In this document: positions 23,843 to 59,220 of the stretch, piece by piece
Position numbering within the stretch: position 1 is the stretch's first letter
Layout: every line of letters starts with the position of its first letter
Assembly: GCA_017447305.1 (NCBI GenBank)
Contig: JAFSNY010000042.1
Location: 8,435-72,434 of the forward strand
Length of the DNA: 64,000 nucleotides
Origin: Bacilli bacterium
GTDB taxonomy: Bacteria > Bacillota_I > Bacilli_A > RFN20 > CAG-826
Direction: 5' to 3'
Program-made: the position numbers and the translations under genes
The notes under the pieces: generated by a model
Database searches by the model: none
The model's input: the letters and a program-made list of their open reading frames with translations, nothing else
Told to the model about the DNA's origin: nothing

Positions 23843-23959
23843 TTACTTTGTAAATAAGAATAATAAAGTTAAAAAAGTTCAGATTTTTTAGCGAAAAATC
23901 GCATTTTTACACATATATATAATTAGAGGGACATTTATGTTCCGAAGGGAGGATGGTCC

Positions 23960-24109
23960 ATGTATCATCTAAAACTTCGCGTCCCCTGCTTAATGTTACA
24001 TTCCAACCTGAAAAATGAAGATATTCACGGAAGGGAGAACAAATCGATGGAATATGTAGTGATCGTTTTGGTCCTCTTATTCTTAATCGCCTTGATTCTT
24101 AAGGAATAA
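23960..24109 (+). CDS. Small ORF of 49 aa, or 20 aa from the internal start at 24047, ending in the hydrophobic helix MEYVVIVLVLLFLIALILKE; candidate type I toxin-like peptide (copy A)
   Basis: Both in-frame ATGs (23960 and 24047) are preceded by GAAGGGAG(GA) Shine-Dalgarno sequences. A TATAAT box lies at 23918-23923. An 11-codon upstream ORF (23937-23972, MFRREDGPCII) overlaps the first Shine-Dalgarno sequence. Confidence 0.35.
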   Translation: MYHLKLRVPCLMLHSNLKNEDIHGRENKSMEYVVIVLVLLFLIALILKE

Positions 24110-24114
24110 TAGGG

Positions 24115-24149
24115 TTTAAAAAAGCATCTTTCCGATGAAAGGAAGATGC
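24115..24149 (-). terminator. Hairpin after peptide A that is bidirectional, with a T6 run on the minus strand
   Basis: GCATCTT(T)CC-gatgaaa-GGAAGATGC. On the minus strand it is followed immediately by TTTTTTAAA. On the plus strand the following T-run is weaker. Confidence 0.5.
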
Positions 24150-24166
24150 CAAAAGCTATTTTTAGT

Positions 24167-24218
24167 GTAACATAAGTCTTCTTCGTAGGCAACACCCGTA
24201 AAGTTTGTCTATGGGGGA
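24167..24218. ncRNA. Conserved ~52-65-nt element downstream of peptide A; candidate antisense/sRNA or 3'-UTR element (copy A)
   Basis: It is nearly identical to 24383-24431 (TAACATAAGTCTTCTTCGTAGGCAACACCCGTAAAGTTTGTCTATGGGGGA). Confidence 0.3.
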
Positions 24219-24263
24219 TGCTCTTATTTGAATGGAACAACACTGAAGTTAGAGAGCACAGTT

Positions 24264-24326
24264 ATGGAAGACATAGCGATTATATTGGTCCTATTATTCC
24301 TAATTGTCTTGACTCTTAGGGACTAG
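24264..24326 (+). CDS. Small 20-aa hydrophobic peptide MEDIAIILVLLFLIVLTLRD; candidate type I toxin-like peptide (copy B)
   Basis: A paralogue of peptide A, about 75% identical at the nucleotide level, with an AGAGAG Shine-Dalgarno-like sequence 6 nt upstream. Confidence 0.3.
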   Translation: MEDIAIILVLLFLIVLTLRD

Positions 24327-24331
24327 GGTTT

Positions 24332-24363
24332 AAAAAAGCATCTTTCCGATGAAAGAAAGATGC
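24332..24363 (-). terminator. Hairpin after peptide B, paralogous to 24115-24149, with a T6 run on the minus strand
   Basis: Perfect 9-bp stem GCATCTTTC/GAAAGATGC. On the minus strand it is preceded by TTTTTTAAACC, so it could also terminate the add transcript. Confidence 0.5.
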
Positions 24364-24382
24364 AAACCACTATCTTTAGTAT

Positions 24383-24431
24383 AACATAAGTCTTCTTCGT
24401 AGGCAACACCCGTAAAGTTTGTCTATGGGGG
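24383..24431. ncRNA. Conserved downstream element, copy B
   Basis: Paralogous to 24167-24218. It abuts the add stop codon at 24450. Confidence 0.3.
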
Positions 24432-24449
24432 ACGCTTTTATACATCAAT

Positions 24450-25600: not shown

Positions 25601-28600
25601 TTAGAATAAGCAAATGTCATCGAAAACTAAGGCATTGGCGGAACCATTCCAGTTTGAGATATTGAAGTTATAGATTGCTCCATAATTGAATCCCATACAG
25701 CAATATGTCCAACCACCGGCTTTGGCAGTTAAGTTACCAATTTCTTGTGCACCACTTAAACCAGTGCTGTTGTAAACCCAAGTTCTTAAAGTGATGTCAT
25801 TTTCTGAAGAGTTATAAACCCAGAATCCGATGTTTTTATAAGCGGTTGCGGTTTCAAGATCATTAAGCATTGATAAGCCAACAACATTATTTGTTCCACC
25901 GTAAGGTCTAACACTCATAGCACCTGTTCCACCAACAAAGTTGGTTTCATCTCTCATGATTCTATCAGTATGATCTTCATTATTATCAACTGTCCAACCA
26001 GTAGAAGTTGTTCTGTAACGACGTTGGAATTGTTCTCTTAATTCATCGGTTGTTCCATCACAGTTGAAATAAACTGGGGCAGCACCAAGAGTTAAGGCAC
26101 CATTGTTTTCAAGGACAGCAGCGGCCGGGCCATCAACACCAACATTGACTAAAGCATTGGCATCTGGATCATAGGTAGCAGTTAAGTTACCATATCTAAC
26201 ATCTTCTAAATCGATGGTAACAAGACCAGTGGCTTTAGCGTAGGTATAAGTTGTTGTGAGTTTAACGGCATCGCCAATTCTGACGTATGCTTTTTCGTTT
26301 GCTAAAGCTAAGACAACGAAAGTATCTGCGCTTTCAATGTTAACGTGACCAGAGAAGTTTCCAACTGGGAGTGGGAGTTCTTCGACTGGTGGTTCTTCTC
26401 CGCCTTCAGCGGCTTTATAAACGATAGTAACGCTATAAACGGCTAAGTTGGAGCCATCACAGGCAAGGGTTGCGCTGGCTTTATCTCCTGCAATAGTCAT
26501 ATTCCCATCAGCAGGTTCTCCCCACCAGCTGCCAGTATAAACGGCATAATTTATAGTCGCGGAAACGATTTCGTATCCTTCTGCTAATGTAGCAGTAAGG
26601 GAAGCTGTACCAGAATTATAAAGTCTGATTTGGAATCCATAGTCATTGGATTTATAAATTTTTCCGGAGTTGCCATCTGTTGCAGAAACAGCAAGAGTAA
26701 CAACTTCATCAAGAGCTTTTGATGTGAATTTGACTGATCCGCCAGTGTAAGAAGCATCTGGATCAGCAATCATATCGACAGCAGCAAATGTAGCGGTAAC
26801 GTTTTCGCTTTCTCCACCGCCACTACCTTGTGGGATGATTGCGGTGATAACGCCTTTACCTTGGACGGTGCCATTATAGTCAGCACGGATTAATTTCATG
26901 GTGACGGAATCACCAATAGCAAGAGCGTTGGTTGCTTCAGTTGTAAGGAAGTCTTGTGGGTTTGTGAAGGCATAAGCACTTGCATTATCCCAAGCAAGAG
27001 CTGAAGCGGTCATGGTTGAACCATAGATGACTAAATCATTTTCGCCATCGGTTAAGACCATGTTACCATATTTATCTTTTGTTTCACCGTCTTTGAAGGA
27101 CTTAATTTCTGCAGTGACATTATAGGCTTTTGCAGCACTGTTTTCTAAAGCGATGAATTCAGCTAAGGTCTTGGTTGTAACGGCTGGTTCTGGGACTTTC
27201 CAAGCTTCACCAGCTTCAACGACTGTGACATCATCAGCGGTAAGAGCAAGTAAGTTTTCAGCTTGACCATGATAATTCTTAACAATGGTTGTAACTTCGA
27301 CTAAAGCGCCTTCTAATAATATGGCGAGTAAGTCTGCATCTTTAACATTGTAAAGTTCAAAGGCGTTGCTGTAATATTTCTTGCTTGAACCACCATGGGC
27401 ATCATCAGCAGAGGCTTGAACTAATTCTTCACCCTTAGTAGCGGTTAAGAAGAAGTTTGAGCCAGATTTAGCAGTGACGTAACCTTGGAATTTGTAGTAA
27501 TCGTAGGTATCGGCGCCATCAGCTAAAGCGGCGTTAACATCTAATACTTCAGCAAATGTTGCATCGATAGTTTGTCTAGCTTCTGGTTTGTTTCCTTCAC
27601 AAGAAACTAAAACGGCAGATTTGGTTTCATATTGGTTTGAACCATCATAGTAGGTGAATGCGCCATAAGCGACAACAGTACCACCAACCCAAATGTCATC
27701 ATCGGTTAATGGGGTATTGCTTGTATCTTTGAAGCATAAGTAGACTTCAAATTTTGCTCCACCTTCAGTGGCTGGTTGTAAATAGAATGAGACAGCACCA
27801 TCAGGTCTTGCGCCAGGTGCGTGATAGAATGATGAAACGACACCAGTGACATAGAATTTTTCAGTGGTGAATCCACCATTATCCTTTAGCCATGCGCCTG
27901 CTTTAAGAGCATCTTCGTTGGTGAATGGATCATCAGCGGTACCTTCATGATCAGTACCAAATTTTTCTTTGTTTGTTACTTTTGCGGTAATTTCAACATC
28001 GACAAAGTCGGTGGCATCATGGTAAGAAACAGTGATTGTCGCTGTACCAGCACCAACGGCGTGGACGTTTTTACCTATAATGGTAGCGACATCTTCATCA
28101 CTTGATTCGAAGGTGATTTCGCCATCATTAATAAGTTTTGTAATGTTTCCGGCTGGTTCGATTTCGAGAGATAAAGCACGGTCAGCATCGCCAACCACCC
28201 ATTCAGCTCTCATATCATCTTTATTCTTAATGGTGATGGAATAATCGATAGCTGGTTCAGATTCTTCTTCGGAGCCTGGTAATTCGGACTCTTCTTCGGA
28301 AACTGGTAATTCAGAGCCTGGTTCACTTTCAGGTGGTAAAACTTCACTACCTTCGGAGACTGGTAATTCTTCACTACCTGGTCCAAGTTCAGATTCAGGT
28401 GGTAATTCTTCACTACCCTGTTCTGAGACTGGTAATTCAGAGCCTGGTTCACTAACTGGTTCTTCAGATGGAACGAGAGATTCTTCTTCAGATTCTGCTT
28501 CAGATGGAACGAGAGATTCTTCTTCGGACTCTGCTTCAGATGGAACGAGAGATTCTTCTTCGCTTTCTTCTTCAGAAACTGGAGCAGGAATGCTTTCTTC

Positions 28601-28732
28601 TTCTGAAGGTTCAACGATTGATGAATCTTGTTCGGATGTCTGACTTTCTGATGGTGTCACTTTTTTCTTACCACAGCCGACAAGTGTTAGTAAGCACACC
28701 AATGAAAGAGGCAATAATAATCCTTTTTTCAT
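25601..28732 (-). CDS. Large surface lipoprotein (1043 aa) with an acidic repeat linker and Ig-like/beta-rich domains; adhesin-like, function unknown
   Basis: Lipobox LVGC↓G. An (EEESLVPSEAES)n linker is followed by a Big_2-like segment. The protein is Thr/Gly/Ala-rich and has no catalytic motifs. Confidence 0.6.
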   Translation of the reverse strand: MKKGLLLPLSLVCLLTLVGCGKKKVTPSESQTSEQDSSIVEPSEEESIPAPVSEEESEEESLVPSEAESEEESLVPSEAESEEESLVPSEEPVSEPGSELPVSEQGSEELPPESELGPGSEELPVSEGSEVLPPESEPGSELPVSEEESELPGSEEESEPAIDYSITIKNKDDMRAEWVVGDADRALSLEIEPAGNITKLINDGEITFESSDEDVATIIGKNVHAVGAGTATITVSYHDATDFVDVEITAKVTNKEKFGTDHEGTADDPFTNEDALKAGAWLKDNGGFTTEKFYVTGVVSSFYHAPGARPDGAVSFYLQPATEGGAKFEVYLCFKDTSNTPLTDDDIWVGGTVVAYGAFTYYDGSNQYETKSAVLVSCEGNKPEARQTIDATFAEVLDVNAALADGADTYDYYKFQGYVTAKSGSNFFLTATKGEELVQASADDAHGGSSKKYYSNAFELYNVKDADLLAILLEGALVEVTTIVKNYHGQAENLLALTADDVTVVEAGEAWKVPEPAVTTKTLAEFIALENSAAKAYNVTAEIKSFKDGETKDKYGNMVLTDGENDLVIYGSTMTASALAWDNASAYAFTNPQDFLTTEATNALAIGDSVTMKLIRADYNGTVQGKGVITAIIPQGSGGGESENVTATFAAVDMIADPDASYTGGSVKFTSKALDEVVTLAVSATDGNSGKIYKSNDYGFQIRLYNSGTASLTATLAEGYEIVSATINYAVYTGSWWGEPADGNMTIAGDKASATLACDGSNLAVYSVTIVYKAAEGGEEPPVEELPLPVGNFSGHVNIESADTFVVLALANEKAYVRIGDAVKLTTTYTYAKATGLVTIDLEDVRYGNLTATYDPDANALVNVGVDGPAAAVLENNGALTLGAAPVYFNCDGTTDELREQFQRRYRTTSTGWTVDNNEDHTDRIMRDETNFVGGTGAMSVRPYGGTNNVVGLSMLNDLETATAYKNIGFWVYNSSENDITLRTWVYNSTGLSGAQEIGNLTAKAGGWTYCCMGFNYGAIYNFNISNWNGSANALVFDDICLF
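28463..28565. repeat. 36-bp tandem repeat of about 2.8 copies within the lipoprotein linker; the same ~45-nt block recurs in the lipoprotein gene at 30650-30700
   Basis: The unit TTCAGATGGAACGAGAGATTCTTCTTC(A/G)GA(T/C)TCTGC is repeated head to tail and encodes VPSEAESEEESL. Confidence 0.6.
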
Positions 28733-56307: not shown

Positions 56308-59220
56308 CTATTTGTTGTTCAAATGTTTTTTGTTGATATAGAAGTATAAAGAGATACTCGCAATCGAAATAAGTGATACAACAATGATAATCGTATAACT
56401 AGTGTCGGTTTCCGTAATTTTACTAATAAGATTGGAGTATGAGCGATTTCTTACAATGTAGTCGCCATTAGATAGGACAACTTCTTTTCCTTGATTTAGA
56501 GCCCACGCTTCAAATCTTAATCTCGCATTTTCAATGACATAATTATTTGAGGTCATAAACGCTAAGCGAGAAGAACTACTCATATTGTTAAAAAGAATAA
56601 TCGCTGGATTAAGTTTGCTTGTGCATTGATTATTCGTATCTTCAAACATGATGTAGTTAGCAAGATTACTTTCGCTTACTTCACCATGCAAAGAGAAGGA
56701 AATGCTCATGATGTTTGAATAGTAACTTGATGATGTGGTATACGCTATCTTGAAGTAACGATATCCACCTTTTTCACATTCACTAGAAGAATAAGGTGTA
56801 TCAAAATCCTCTCCATCCTTACTGATGAATAATTGAGCGTCACTTCTTCCGCCCGCTTTTTGAGCGATTTCTAACCCAACGATATCGTGATCAAAAGCGT
56901 TAGAATTATAGATATATCCCGCACTCTTTCCAAAAGAAAGATACGCACTACTATAGATGTATGCATTTGTCGAAACAGTGAAATCAATATCATCAATTTT
57001 TACACTTGTGGAGCTAGGTGTTCCACTACTCTTAGAGATAGTTGAAGAAGCAAATTCAGCAGAAGAGAAAGAAAGGGATTCTGGCTCTATTTCACTGAAA
57101 GCTTCTCTCATGACGGAGACTTCGAGGGTTGTTTCTAATTCGCTATATCTGATAGTAAATTCTTTTGATGTTGCTTCTCCTCCACTAGCAGCGTCACTAT
57201 AAGTGAATTGATATCCATTGTTTGTGAAAGTGAAGTCATTAATATCATTACCGAAGTTATCAATGACAGTAATATCACTCTTACTGATGGTCTCTCCTAC
57301 CACATATGTCTTTTCAACGGATGCGGTAATCGATGTAGGAACCTTTGGTAATGTCGAATGATATGTAACAGAAATACTTGTAAATTTTACTTGTCCATTG
57401 GTCGCAGATGTTGTATTACCGACATGGAAAGTCACACTTGAACCACTGATAGATTGAGATGATCCACTTGCAACTGTTTCATTACTAGAATCAAGAAGGA
57501 TTCCATCATTTGCTGTAGTGTAGTTAAATGTAACACTATCGAGTTCATAGTTTGTCGCTGCGCTAATCACAATACTTGCTGATTCTGATTGATAGAATCT
57601 CCAGTCATTACCGTTCGTATAGTATTTTCCCGTATTGCTTCCACCATTTCCTACGGAAGCTGTAATAATTGAATCAAGCGATACACTCGTATATTTTTGT
57701 GCATTTGTCCAACTATTATCGCTTGCATATGAGGAGATAGATTTGGTAACAGCGATGGTATCTCCTTCGATAACAGTGACATCACAAGTATCGGTAAAAC
57801 TTCCATCATGAGTCGTAACGGTAATTGTTGCTTCACCAGTAGCAACACCAGTGACCGTGCCATTACTTACTGTTGCCACAGAAGTGTTACTTGATGACCA
57901 AGTCACCGCTTGATCAGAAGCATTAGCAGGAGAAATGGAAACTGCTAATGTTTTATTTTGTCCAACTTCCACGGTCAATGTTGATTTATCTAAAGATACA
58001 CTAGTAACGTTTACACCTGCATCGGAAGAATATCCGTTGATGGTGTCGGTTGATGGAGTGGCGTATCCCGTTGGGGTGCTACTATATGAAACAAAAGTAT
58101 TTCCACTATAAGTGGCGGTGCCCCAAATATAATCAACCCATTCTGGGAAATCGATGAATGGATTTCTATTATTGGTGAAGTTTTTATATAAAAGATTGTT
58201 ACGATGGATTTCAAATTCATCAACCGGGTCAGCGTGATGCCAGGCTAATAAATCGGTGAGAATACCAATCTTTCCTGTTGTTGAAGTTGTTGATTGATAT
58301 CCTGAACTTGCCCATGAAGTAACATTATTAACAATTTCAAGGTTTGGGTTATTGGAGTCAATTCCATCACTATCACTGCCTGAATAATAATTATATCTCG
58401 CGGCCATATAGAAGATGGAACGAGCGATATCACCTTTATCGGAATCTTGAGGTTCAAAGACAGTTTTACCGCCTTTAGTTTTTGATAATCCTGAAAGATT
58501 TCCACTTAAATTCGTATAAGTATTGCCCATATCTGTATAGTTAGGGTCGTTTACTGTATCGACATAGCCATAGTAATAATTACTATGCTGGTTATTGACT
58601 TTGCCGTTTCCAGCCATGAGGTGCATTGGATCGCCTCTCGCGCCTCCGCTGCCACTATCTTCAAAACCTAACGCTTTAGGCCAAACGTGTTCTCTGTTTA
58701 TGCCCCATTGACTTTGATTATGGTCATCCCATGCGGTTGTTTGATTATCGACATTTCTATTAACGTATAAAGCGTGGATATAGGGATTATTCTTTGAATT
58801 AGATGAACTTGATCCATATGTATATCCAGTTATAGTGTTTGTTTTGACATTATATGTTCCATATGTCGTTCCACTAGCAGGAGATTTTTCCCAGTCACGA
58901 TCTGTGATTTCATATATTCTCCAAACGTTCGTGCCGTTTTCATAAGAATAATATTTTTGTCCATTTTTTAAGATGGTTTTAAGATTCTTTAAAAGATTAG
59001 TGCCTTGCCTTTCTGATGTTGATAAGCTAGACAACGATGAATAATAACTTCTAATGTCAGAAGAACTAGTATCGTTTAAGTCTATTGTGGTGGGAAGAGA
59101 AGATGCATCGTAAGCATCAACTTTTACCTTCCCGGTGTTTTTTGAATTAATGGCTAACGCGATAGATAAAAAAGGAAGCGTTAGCAACGCTGGTGTTAAT
59201 TTTATTATTTTTGTTCTCAT
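56308..59220 (-). CDS. Surface-anchored extracellular nuclease: an endonuclease I (EndA/Vvn-like) domain plus Big_2 Ig-like domains and a C-terminal transmembrane anchor
   Basis: Catalytic motifs NREHVWPKA and DPMHLMAGNGKVNNQHSN match the EndA/Vvn active site. A Big_2 repeat and a C-terminal hydrophobic helix follow. I prefer the ATG at 59220 (MRTKIIKL..., a good signal peptide). The ORF-track start at 59256 is a TTG. Confidence 0.65.
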   Translation of the reverse strand: MRTKIIKLTPALLTLPFLSIALAINSKNTGKVKVDAYDASSLPTTIDLNDTSSSDIRSYYSSLSSLSTSERQGTNLLKNLKTILKNGQKYYSYENGTNVWRIYEITDRDWEKSPASGTTYGTYNVKTNTITGYTYGSSSSNSKNNPYIHALYVNRNVDNQTTAWDDHNQSQWGINREHVWPKALGFEDSGSGGARGDPMHLMAGNGKVNNQHSNYYYGYVDTVNDPNYTDMGNTYTNLSGNLSGLSKTKGGKTVFEPQDSDKGDIARSIFYMAARYNYYSGSDSDGIDSNNPNLEIVNNVTSWASSGYQSTTSTTGKIGILTDLLAWHHADPVDEFEIHRNNLLYKNFTNNRNPFIDFPEWVDYIWGTATYSGNTFVSYSSTPTGYATPSTDTINGYSSDAGVNVTSVSLDKSTLTVEVGQNKTLAVSISPANASDQAVTWSSSNTSVATVSNGTVTGVATGEATITVTTHDGSFTDTCDVTVIEGDTIAVTKSISSYASDNSWTNAQKYTSVSLDSIITASVGNGGSNTGKYYTNGNDWRFYQSESASIVISAATNYELDSVTFNYTTANDGILLDSSNETVASGSSQSISGSSVTFHVGNTTSATNGQVKFTSISVTYHSTLPKVPTSITASVEKTYVVGETISKSDITVIDNFGNDINDFTFTNNGYQFTYSDAASGGEATSKEFTIRYSELETTLEVSVMREAFSEIEPESLSFSSAEFASSTISKSSGTPSSTSVKIDDIDFTVSTNAYIYSSAYLSFGKSAGYIYNSNAFDHDIVGLEIAQKAGGRSDAQLFISKDGEDFDTPYSSSECEKGGYRYFKIAYTTSSSYYSNIMSISFSLHGEVSESNLANYIMFEDTNNQCTSKLNPAIILFNNMSSSSRLAFMTSNNYVIENARLRFEAWALNQGKEVVLSNGDYIVRNRSYSNLISKITETDTSYTIIIVVSLISIASISLYFYINKKHLNNK

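What the first reader, a model, noticed from the sequence alone, without database searches (positions are those of the whole stretch)
23918..24440. Tandem pair of tiny hydrophobic-peptide modules, each with a hairpin and a conserved 3' element: candidate type I toxin-antitoxin-like loci
Directly seen in the sequence:
- Two ~215-bp tandem units sit in the convergent gap between a lipoprotein gene and add.
- Each unit encodes a 20-aa peptide that is almost entirely one transmembrane helix flanked by charged ends: MEYVVIVLVLLFLIALILKE (24047-24109) and MEDIAIILVLLFLIVLTLRD (24264-24326).
- Each peptide ORF is followed within 15 nt by a strong hairpin, GCATCTTTC-gatgaaa-GAAAGATGC. On the minus strand that hairpin runs straight into TTTTTT; on the plus strand the T-run is weak.
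- After each hairpin comes a ~50-nt element that is nearly identical between the two copies (TAACATAAGTCTTCTTCGTAGGCAACACCCGTAAAGTTTGTCTATGGGGGA).
- Copy A also has an in-frame upstream ATG at 23960. That gives a 49-aa form with a hydrophilic N-terminus. Both ATGs are preceded by GAAGGGAG Shine-Dalgarno sequences.
- An 11-codon upstream ORF (MFRREDGPCII) overlaps the first Shine-Dalgarno sequence, and a TATAAT box lies at 23918.

Inference:
- The architecture resembles type I toxin-antitoxin loci: a short membrane peptide, then a convergent terminator with a conserved antisense-capable 3' region. Known examples are Ibs/Sib, and TxpA/RatA and BsrG/SR4, where the antitoxin RNA overlaps the toxin 3' end.
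- The peptides do not resemble the Fst/Ldr families in sequence. This may be a new family of peptide/sRNA modules.
Basis: partly seen in the sequence, partly recalled or inferred. Interest (0 to 1): 0.72.

Follow-up and report, generated by a model that had tools for sequence, protein, structure and literature searches.

The report
Candidate new type I toxin-antitoxin cassette
Two tandem copies of a small cassette from an uncultured low-GC bacterium, apparently of the rumen, each encode a 20-residue membrane peptide on a tightly folded mRNA, with a predicted ~40-nt antisense RNA gene nested in its 3' UTR; this looks like a new family of type I toxin-antitoxin modules, but toxicity and RNA expression are untested.

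Summary
Two 214-217-bp tandem units each carry a 20-aa hydrophobic ORF, a hairpin and a near-identical 3' element.

Eleven related units or unit remnants from other metagenome contigs show what the conserved parts are:
- The 3' element holds a minus-strand promoter (TTGnnn, exactly 17 nt, TAnnnT; TGn-extended in 10 of 11). It lies 13-18 nt before hairpin 1, which is a minus-strand-only terminator. The predicted antisense RNA is ~30-45 nt and sits just 3' of the peptide stop codon.
- The rest of the element is a plus-strand hairpin 2 with a U-rich tail. Its two flanks pair with a 5' leader segment, closing the mRNA. Covariation supports this pairing, and cognate pairings are stronger than cross-lineage ones.
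- The peptide ORF is kept as a TM-like peptide of 20-25 aa with conservative substitutions. The 49-aa fusion is not conserved.

The cassette occurs in three genomic contexts (add/lipoprotein, ffh, tmRNA). It is absent from five add loci of more distant relatives, and one locus keeps only the antisense unit. It is therefore not simply the add 3' UTR.

No Pfam, NCBIfam or Rfam family matches. Best reading (about 0.6): a new type I TA-like family with an unusually small, 3'-UTR-nested antitoxin.

The parts
23886..23929 (+). Conserved upstream block (TTTTTT-AGCGAAAAATCGC-ATTTTT ... TATAAT at 23918-23923). This is the presumed promoter region of the peptide mRNA, but the exact promoter and start site are unresolved.
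   Evidence: The block is conserved at the left edge of the cassette in the window, L007, L108, L133 and L008. The simple sigma-70 scan found no consensus promoter here.
23928..23978 (+). 5' leader with two hairpins. Hairpin a (23928-23943) holds the AUG of the 11-codon uORF (23937-23972). Hairpin b (23944-23978) presents the ORF2 start codon (23960) in its loop, preceded by GGAGG.
   Evidence: MFE folds of all homologues give the same two hairpins. Pairs with two-sided changes are counted in helices 2 and 3. The strong SD plus ATG of ORF2 is conserved in every leader, but its reading frame relative to the peptide is not.
23979..24002 (+). 5' strand of the long-distance helix: P1a GCGUCCCC (23979-23986) and P1b GCUUA-A-UGUUACAUU (23988-24002).
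   Evidence: Cognate pairing is -17.5 to -20 kcal/mol, against -2.7 to -14 across lineages. In the mini-alignment 92.7% of cells are paired, against 37-54% when the partners are slid.
24047..24109 (+). Peptide A ORF, MEYVVIVLVLLFLIALILKE, with SD GAAGGGAG at 24030-24037. A hairpin at 24049-24083 starts at the G of the AUG.
   Evidence: Helix 5 has 5 pairs with two-sided changes. Substitutions are conservative and mostly avoid codon position 2.
24118..24157 (-). Predicted antisense RNA A, about 40 nt. Start at about 24157, hairpin 1 at 24149-24124, U-tail at 24123-24118.
   Evidence: Promoter TTGCCT (24192-24187), 17 nt, TACACT (24169-24164), then 14 nt to the hairpin and T6. The same geometry is found in all 11 related units.
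24164..24229 (+). 3' element A. It comprises the P1b 3' strand (24164-24177), a CU tract (24178-24184), hairpin 2 (full form 24176-24221), the P1a 3' strand (24214-24221) and a U-rich tail (24222-24229). On the minus strand the same DNA is the antisense promoter.
   Evidence: Hairpin 2 folds at -17.3 kcal/mol on the plus strand and -8.2 on the minus strand; plus is more stable than minus in all 8 units tested. Compensatory changes separate the window from L133A. For the long-distance helix.
24264..24326 (+). Peptide B ORF, MEDIAIILVLLFLIVLTLRD. It has only a short leader (TTAGAGAGCACAGTTATG) that resembles the uORF start region of unit A, and no long leader of its own.
   Evidence: B-type units always follow a complete unit (window, L133, L108).
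24332..24371 (-). Predicted antisense RNA B, about 40 nt. Start at about 24371, hairpin 1 at 24363-24338, U-tail at 24337-24332. In this context the hairpin also serves as the terminator of add.
   Evidence: Promoter TTGCCT (24406-24401), 17 nt, TG-extended TATACT (24383-24378), found by the scan. Terminator-like site on the minus strand. Table.
24378..24443 (+). 3' element B: -10 complement and P1b-like strand, CU tract, hairpin 2 (24390-24435) and U-rich tail (24436-24443).
   Evidence: plus -17.5, minus -6.8 kcal/mol.

Best explanation
Each unit is a type I toxin-antitoxin-like cassette of a previously undescribed family.

Shown by sequence comparison:
- The plus strand gives a roughly 310-nt mRNA, or about 520 nt if units A and B are read as one transcript. 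It encodes a 20-25-aa single-helix membrane peptide.
- The mRNA is locked into a closed fold. There are two leader hairpins and a hairpin that starts at the peptide start codon. A long-distance helix pairs a leader segment (23979-24002) with both flanks of the 3' hairpin 2.
- Nested in the 3' UTR, on the minus strand, is a conserved promoter (TTGnnn-17-TAnnnT, with a TGn extension in 10 of 11 units). Its -35 box lies in the 5' arm of hairpin 2, and its -10 box lies in the 3' strand of the long-distance helix.
- This promoter sits 13-18 nt upstream of hairpin 1, which has a T-run on the minus strand only.

Inferred:
- The promoter makes a ~30-45-nt antisense RNA, fully complementary to the mRNA stretch from just after the stop codon to just before the long-distance helix.
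- Pairing starts between the complementary hairpin-1 loops and forms a duplex of about 40 bp. This duplex is cut by RNase III. Cutting separates the ORF from its protective 3' structure and triggers decay, as in the 3'-overlapping Bacillus systems.
- Translation is also held down by the mRNA fold. It may need ribosomes starting at the conserved leader ORF2 site to open the fold, as mok does for hok.
- When the antisense RNA runs out, the peptide is made and damages the membrane.
For: - Antisense unit: all 11 units (5-6 sequence-divergent lineages) have TTGnnn, exactly 17 nt, TAnnnT, then 13-18 nt, a hairpin of -7.7 to -12 kcal/mol and T4-T6. None has a T-run after the hairpin on the plus strand.
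- Hairpin 1 has seven different stem sequences at the same position.
- The promoter survives where the plus-strand structure is gone (L013, L108_2) and where the flanking sequence has diverged (L137).
- The motif read on the other strand matches an abundant TTGAC-17-TATACT element in unrelated marine contigs, which has the form of a sigma-70 promoter.
- mRNA fold: independent MFE folds of 7 constructs from five loci, three sequence lineages, give the same 5'-3' closure. RNAalifold recovers it.
- Covariation: in the full alignment 89.3% of cells are paired against 45-54% when slid. Nineteen pairs have two-sided changes, against 3-6 when slid. The long-distance helix alone gives 92.7% against 37-54%.
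- Cognate 5'/3' pairs are -17.5 to -20 kcal/mol, against -2.7 to -14 across lineages.
- Hairpin 2 is plus-strand specific.
- Coding: a hydrophobic ORF of 20-25 aa ends 1-6 nt before the A-run in every complete unit. Of 15 substitutions between close pairs, 1 is at codon position 2 (binomial p about 0.02) and all are synonymous or conservative.
- Selfish-cassette behaviour: three genomic contexts, tandem copies, a different allele at the same site between strains with 97% identical add, absence in more distant relatives, and one orphan antisense unit.
- These features match published hallmarks of type I systems: a short structured mRNA, SD sequestration, 5'-3' long-distance interaction, and in Gram-positive families an antisense RNA on the 3' side (PMC8594479, PMC6562991).
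Against: - There is no expression, toxicity or rescue data.
- The predicted antisense RNA would be smaller than any characterised type I antitoxin I know of (own knowledge). It does not overlap the ORF or its ribosome-binding site. No consistent pairing of it with the 5' leader was found.
- The peptide mRNA promoter and start site are not identified.
- The peptide SD is weak or far from the ATG in unit B and in L008.
- L013 keeps the antisense unit without any peptide gene, so that unit may have a role of its own, for example as the add terminator.
- Covariation rests on 6 sequences from 3 lineages, and the tested structure was derived from those sequences.
- The family was found in few contigs, and the organism is uncultured and unclassified.
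Confidence: 0.6

Rival explanations
1. A non-toxic small membrane protein gene, for example a regulator or subunit of a membrane complex, whose expression is tuned by a short cis-antisense RNA and by mRNA structure. The anatomy is the same but there is no toxin-antitoxin behaviour.
For: All the structural evidence fits this equally well. Nothing here tests toxicity. Many bacterial small hydrophobic proteins are not toxins (own knowledge).
Against: Housekeeping small proteins usually have a fixed position and conserved sequence. This cassette behaves differently:
- tandem duplication;
- three unrelated genomic contexts;
- replacement of the peptide type at one site between near-identical strains;
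- presence/absence between relatives;
- a decayed copy (L137);
- an orphan antisense unit (L013).
These are typical of selfish toxin-antitoxin cassettes. The several layers of translational repression also suggest a dangerous product.
Confidence: 0.2
2. The plus-strand transcript is a structured non-coding RNA or a repeat element, and the hydrophobic ORF is incidental.
For: RNA structure and covariation extend into the ORF (helix 5). Part of the ORF's pairing could come from purine-rich acidic codons facing pyrimidine-rich Leu/Phe codons. The peptides match no protein family.
Against: - An ORF encoding a TM-like peptide is kept in four lineages despite strong sequence divergence; a fifth (L137) keeps the hydrophobic frame without an in-frame ATG. 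In each it ends just before the A-run.
- Substitutions avoid codon position 2 and are conservative.
- SD-like sequences precede most starts.
- The complementary segments are internal, not terminal, so it does not look like a MITE. Copy number is 1-2 per contig.
Confidence: 0.08
3. Hairpin 1 plus the element is simply the add 3' UTR and terminator, duplicated by chance.
For: In the window hairpin 1 of unit B is the first minus-strand terminator after add. In L013 the same promoter-hairpin unit directly follows add with no peptide gene.
Against: - The same cassette lies downstream of ffh in L108.
- In L133 it lies beside the tmRNA gene with no convergent gene at all.
- Unit A and the first units of L108 and L133 have the hairpin with no gene reading into it.
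- Five add loci of relatives have no such element (L009, L010, L012, L136, L138).
Confidence: 0.03
4. The promoter-like motif on the minus strand is only a by-product of sequence kept for plus-strand RNA pairing. Hairpin 1 is just a structural or stabilising element of the mRNA, and no antisense RNA is made.
For: The -10 box and TG lie inside the 3' strand of the long-distance helix, and the -35 box lies inside hairpin 2. Plus-strand constraints therefore overlap them.
Against: - TTG and TA...T stay invariant at exactly 17-nt spacing even where hairpin 2 and the helix are absent (L013, L108_2) or have a different sequence (L008, L137).
- The A-run before hairpin 1 has no role on the plus strand, but gives a T-run on the minus strand in all 11 units.
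Confidence: 0.07

Closest known systems
Bacillus subtilis 3'-overlapping type I systems (txpA/RatA, bsrG/SR4, bsrE/SR5, yonT/SR6)
   Same: A small hydrophobic toxin and a convergent antisense RNA on the 3' side of the toxin mRNA. The likely action is through duplex formation and RNase III-dependent decay (PMC6562991, PMC3834814, PMC3531473). The host is low-GC.
   Different: Those antitoxins are 100-220 nt, share 100-140 bp with the mRNA and overlap the ORF 3' end (PMC6562991, PMC8594479). Here the predicted RNA is ~30-45 nt, lies wholly inside the 3' UTR and does not reach the ORF. There is no sequence or profile similarity.
Enterococcus par (Fst/RNAII) and Staphylococcus SprA1/SprA1as
   Same: The antisense RNA lies on the 3' side and overlaps only the 3' UTR/terminator, not the ORF (PMC8594479). 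The antisense RNA is short, about 60-65 nt in those systems (own knowledge). A hairpin is shared between the two RNAs.
   Different: In those families control works through a non-overlapping 5' domain that pairs with the toxin translation start region (PMC8594479). Here the RNA has almost no non-overlapping part, and no consistent 5' pairing was found. Hairpin 1 terminates only the minus strand. The peptides are not Fst-like.
hok/mok/sok of plasmid R1
   Same: The mRNA is closed by pairing between its 5' and 3' regions (the tac/fbi principle). A leader ORF with its own strong start site overlaps or precedes the toxin ORF (PMC6562991, PMC8594479).
   Different: Sok pairs with the 5' leader, whereas here the antisense gene is in the 3' UTR. 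Coupling of ORF2 to the peptide is only conjecture, because the frame relation varies. There is no Hok homology, and the host is of Gram-positive type and low-GC.
Ibs/Sib of E. coli
   Same: Very short (18-19 aa), almost purely hydrophobic peptides, with loci in tandem copies (own knowledge; PMC8594479).
   Different: Sib spans the entire ibs ORF, and the antisense RNA here does not touch the ORF. There is no Pfam or Rfam match.

Membership tests
Type I toxin-antitoxin system (generic definition) | A small (<60 aa) hydrophobic peptide ORF under coding constraint | tested here: met
   TM-like ORFs of 20-25 aa are kept in four lineages (hydrophobic frame only in L137). GRAVY is 1.4-2.4 and substitutions are conservative.
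Type I toxin-antitoxin system (generic definition) | A gene for an antisense RNA complementary to the toxin mRNA | tested here: met
   A conserved minus-strand promoter plus terminator lies inside the 3' UTR in 11 of 11 units. This rests on sequence signals only.
Type I toxin-antitoxin system (generic definition) | Structured toxin mRNA with sequestered start region and/or 5'-3' long-distance interaction | tested here: met
   The hallmark is described in PMC8594479.
Type I toxin-antitoxin system (generic definition) | The peptide is toxic when over-produced, and the antisense RNA neutralises it | not testable with these tools
   Requires expression experiments.
TxpA/RatA and BsrG/SR4-type (Bacillus) | Convergent antisense RNA with 100-140 bp of overlap that includes the ORF 3' end | tested here: not met
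   The predicted overlap is about 30-45 nt and starts 1-6 nt after the stop codon. Compare PMC6562991 and PMC8594479.
TxpA/RatA and BsrG/SR4-type (Bacillus) | Sequence or profile similarity of the toxin or antitoxin | tested here: not met
   No Pfam or NCBIfam hit at E<=10 apart from noise. No Rfam hit, even at E<=10, to any antitoxin family.
Fst/RNAII and SprA1/SprA1as | The antisense RNA overlaps only the 3' UTR/terminator of the toxin mRNA | tested here: met
   organisation as described in PMC8594479.
Fst/RNAII and SprA1/SprA1as | A non-overlapping 5' domain of the antisense RNA pairs with the toxin translation start region | tested here: not met
   The predicted RNA has a 5' tail of only ~7-8 nt (up to ~11 in L108_1). 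RNAduplex against the leaders gave z-scores between -3.6 and +1.6, with no common site.
Fst/RNAII and SprA1/SprA1as | Fst/Ldr-type toxin sequence | tested here: not met
   No Pfam match.
Hok/Sok | 5'-3' fold-back closing the mRNA | tested here: met
   This is analogous, not homologous.
Hok/Sok | An overlapping leader ORF (mok) whose translation is coupled to the toxin and is the antisense target | tested here: inconclusive
   ORF2 has a conserved strong SD plus ATG. Its frame relative to the peptide varies: fused in the window, L133 and L008; overlapping out of frame in L007 and L108; truncated in L011. The antisense RNA is not at the leader.
Ibs/Sib | The antisense RNA spans the whole toxin ORF, with Ibs/Sib sequence families | tested here: not met

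The most novel reading that the evidence does not exclude
This is a new architectural class of type I module. The antitoxin is a minimal RNA of ~30-45 nt: a ~7-11-nt tail plus a terminator hairpin. It is nested entirely in the toxin 3' UTR. Its promoter is built into the toxin mRNA's own terminator hairpin and 5'-3' clamp, so one ~60-bp DNA segment serves three functions. The cassette recombines between sites and alleles in an uncultured lineage, probably of the rumen. The antisense unit can outlive the toxin, as in L013, where it serves as a gene terminator.
Probability: 0.35. Interest if true: 0.65.

Novelty: new variant of a known kind. Interest (0 to 1): 0.55.

Why it matters
If confirmed, this would add a type I toxin-antitoxin family from an uncultured low-GC bacterium, probably from the rumen. 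Nothing comparable turned up in Pfam, NCBIfam or Rfam, or in the literature searches run here.

It would also extend the known design space in two ways. The antitoxin would be only about 40 nt and confined to the 3' UTR. One short DNA segment would encode an antisense promoter on one strand and a terminator plus long-distance clamp on the other.

The set of natural variants is a ready-made mutational series for testing how such compact sense/antisense switches work. It includes complete units, leaderless second units, a truncated unit, an orphan antisense unit and a decayed ORF. Such small modules are also attractive as portable RNA regulators (compare PMC12721322).

Tried and rejected
- Rfam, region at E<=10 and whole window or loci at gathering score: only weak L10_leader hits on the minus strand (20.9 and 17.1 bits against 44 needed). 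These are driven by the terminator and were rejected.
- Protein search with the 49-aa ORF: only itself.
- Pfam and NCBIfam with all peptide forms: noise only.
- Genome-contig scan with the 20-mer GGCAACACCCGTAAAGTTTG: one chance hit in a Nomurabacteria MAG with no flanking similarity.
Almost all hits were an unrelated marine promoter-like element. Only L108 and L133 are genuine.
- Viral scans: two chance hits, and an unspecific 15-mer scan.
- Pairing of the antisense RNA with the 5' leader, as in Fst or SprA1: not consistent between lineages.
- Sequestration of start regions by the CU tract of the 3' element: significant only in L008 (z -3.9) and L007 (z -2.6), so not adopted as a general feature.
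- Minus-strand ORFs of 41 and 72 aa across the element: not conserved (an early stop in L008, read from the sequence), and they contain the terminator. Rejected.
- MITE reading: the complementary segments are internal, not terminal.
- Taxonomy: cluster look-up gave no names. The organism remains unclassified (37% GC, standard code).
- Other copies in the window: none. One look-alike at 56924 (-) lies inside a 982-aa ORF.
- Promoter for unit B and an exact promoter for the unit A mRNA: not found (plus inspection).
Full report
**Observation**

The finding is accurate. Two direct repeats tile 24035-24441:
- The ORF part is 74% identical between copies.
- The 118-nt non-coding part is 92% identical, and 57 nt of it are identical.
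- A 38-mer of the element occurs exactly twice in the window, with 0 expected by chance.

The two 20-codon ORFs, the in-frame ATG at 23960, the 11-codon uORF and the GAAGGGAG sites are all present. Hairpin 1 (24124-24149 and 24338-24363) is present too. It is followed by T6 only on the minus strand. Contigs from several samples are identical over the region.

**Related loci**

The 49-aa ORF has no relatives among called proteins. I therefore fetched the add loci of relatives and scanned metagenomes with a degenerate motif. This gave eleven related units or unit remnants:

| Unit(s) | Source | Peptide or state |
|---|---|---|
| Window A, B | this window | 20 aa each |
| L133 A, B | beside the tmRNA gene | 20 aa each |
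| L108 1, 2 | downstream of ffh | 25 aa and 20 aa |
| L007 | add 97% identical, one unit | different 25-aa peptide, MEEVLIFMVILLLMVITLSSLKNPK |
| L008 / L011 | add 80% identical | MDKIINLLRLFIILALAIALLLG |
| L137 | add 73% identical | divergent; the hydrophobic frame lacks an in-frame ATG |
| L013 | add 71% identical | no peptide gene at all |

Five other add loci have no module: L009, L010, L012, L136 and L138. The three genomic contexts exclude the idea that this is just the add 3' UTR. In the window, however, hairpin 1 of unit B must also terminate add.

**The minus-strand unit**

All eleven units read, on the minus strand:
- TTGnnn;
- exactly 17 nt;
- TAnnnT (a TGn extension in 10 of 11, absent in L137);
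- 13-18 nt (14 in most);
- a hairpin of -7.7 to -12 kcal/mol;
- T5-6 (T4 in L013).

None has a T-run after the hairpin on the plus strand.

Three observations show that the promoter itself is conserved:
- Hairpin 1 has seven unrelated stem sequences: GCATCTTTC, GGCATC, GTCTCC, GTTCCCA, GTCCCC, TCCCC and GATCCC.
- The key promoter positions stay fixed where the plus-strand structure is missing (L013, L108_2).
- They also stay fixed where the surrounding sequence has changed (L137: TTGAAG-17-TATAAT).

The motif also matched an abundant TTGACT...TATACT element in unrelated marine contigs, which has the form of a sigma-70 promoter.

The transcription unit would give an RNA of ~30-45 nt. In the window this is about 24157 to 24118 and about 24371 to 24332. 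It is complementary to the mRNA from just after the stop codon to just before the 3' strand of the clamp.

**The plus-strand RNA**

MFE folds of seven constructs from five loci (three sequence lineages) give the same architecture:
- two leader hairpins;
- a hairpin beginning at the G of the peptide AUG;
- hairpin 1;
- a long-distance helix in which a leader segment (23979-24002) pairs with both flanks of hairpin 2.

RNAalifold recovers the helix.

Counts on the full alignment:

| Measure | Observed | Partners slid 1-3 columns |
|---|---|---|
| Cells paired | 89.3% | 45-54% |
| Pairs with two-sided changes | 19 | 3-6 |
| Covariation score | 0.43 | 0.11-0.15 |

For the long-distance helix alone, 92.7% of cells are paired, against 37-54% when slid. 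Five pairs have two-sided changes.

Cognate 5'/3' combinations bind at -17.5 to -20 kcal/mol. Cross-lineage combinations bind at -2.7 to -14.

Hairpin 2 is 2-10 kcal/mol more stable on the plus strand in all eight cases, because of G-U pairs. It is followed by a U-rich tail, so it is the likely mRNA terminator.

Caveat: the covariation rests on six sequences from three lineages, and the structure was derived from them.

**Coding**

An ORF for a TM-like peptide ends 1-6 nt before the A-run in every complete unit. Of 15 substitutions between close pairs, only one falls on codon position 2. All are synonymous or conservative.

The long fusion forms are not conserved:
- ORF2 is out of frame in L007 and L108.
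- It is cut short by a 1-nt indel in L011.
- Its strong SD plus ATG is nevertheless conserved in every leader.

Second, B-type units lack the long leader. Their start region resembles the uORF start of unit A. They are probably read through from the first unit.

**Interpretation**

The anatomy matches published hallmarks of type I toxin-antitoxin loci (PMC8594479, PMC6562991):
- a short structured mRNA;
- sequestered start sites;
- 5'-3' closure;
- an antisense RNA on the 3' side, as in Gram-positive families.

The population behaviour fits a selfish cassette. There are tandem copies and several genomic sites. The allele is replaced between near-identical strains, and copies are lost, decayed or orphaned.

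I propose that duplex formation over about 40 bp leads to RNase III cleavage and decay, on top of intrinsic translational repression. This mechanism is inferred, not shown.

Differences from known families:
- The antisense RNA is very small.
- It is wholly inside the 3' UTR.
- It has no detectable second pairing site.
- Neither the peptide nor the RNA matches any Pfam, NCBIfam or Rfam family.

**Verdict**

This is a real, conserved, independently located cassette. The best reading is a new type I TA-like family with an unusual antitoxin layout (confidence about 0.6). The main rival is a non-toxic small membrane protein with the same antisense control (about 0.2). Expression and toxicity tests are needed.

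Noticed in passing
L013:4012-4148 (same in L014, L015): Right after the add stop there is only the antisense promoter (TTGCTA-17-TATACT), 14 nt, the hairpin TCCCCtctcaGGGGA and a T-run, with no peptide gene. This is an orphan antisense unit that here acts as the add terminator.
   Followed up: partly
L137:2512-2762: A divergent cassette whose hydrophobic frame (..FVIWLTVLMIVALLLLLLR*) has no in-frame ATG. An ATGAAAGAAAAGAGAAAC start lies in another frame. It is either a decayed toxin gene or a homopolymer error in the Logan assembly.
   Followed up: partly
window 23880-23979 versus L007:4249-4350 (minus strand): Two strains with 97% identical add share an almost identical leader up to CTTCGC. 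After that they carry different peptide types and different numbers of units (two versus one). This indicates allelic replacement by recombination at this site.
   Followed up: partly
window 23891-23902 (GCGAAAAATCGC) and the same position in L007, L008, L108, L133: A conserved short palindrome, CGAAAAATCG, flanked by T-runs, lies at the left edge of every leader-bearing cassette. It could be an operator, part of the unidentified mRNA promoter, or a weak hairpin.
   Followed up: no
L008:1738-1750 versus L011 (C-run in TTCCCCTACC / TTCCCCCTACC): A 1-nt indel in a C-run switches ORF2 between a 54-aa fusion with the peptide and a 16-aa leader ORF. It is unclear whether this is real variation or an assembly error.
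   Followed up: no
L017, L022-L024 and many others up to L135 (for example L017:1262-1291): The scan motif hit a very abundant, nearly invariant 30-mer, TTGACTTATGTGAAGACTTATGTTATACTA, in contigs that look marine by their names. It has the form of a strong sigma-70 promoter upstream of a conserved sequence and is unrelated to this cassette.
   Followed up: no
L133:2141-2530 (-): A tmRNA gene (Rfam 114 bits) lies about 90 nt from the left edge of the cassette, in divergent orientation.
   Followed up: partly
window 25601-28732 (-): A 1043-aa lipoprotein-like ORF (signal peptide ending LVGC) has acidic tandem repeats (SEEESLVPSEAE...) near its N-terminus. It has no Pfam hit on record. Relatives carry Big_2 domains at the same position.
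   Followed up: no
L108 minus strand, about 663-790 in L108 coordinates: The second unit of L108 is truncated right after the -35 box. Hairpin 2 and the P1a strand are missing, replaced by a different hairpin (TTACCAttGGTAA), yet the antisense promoter and hairpin 1 are intact.
   Followed up: partly
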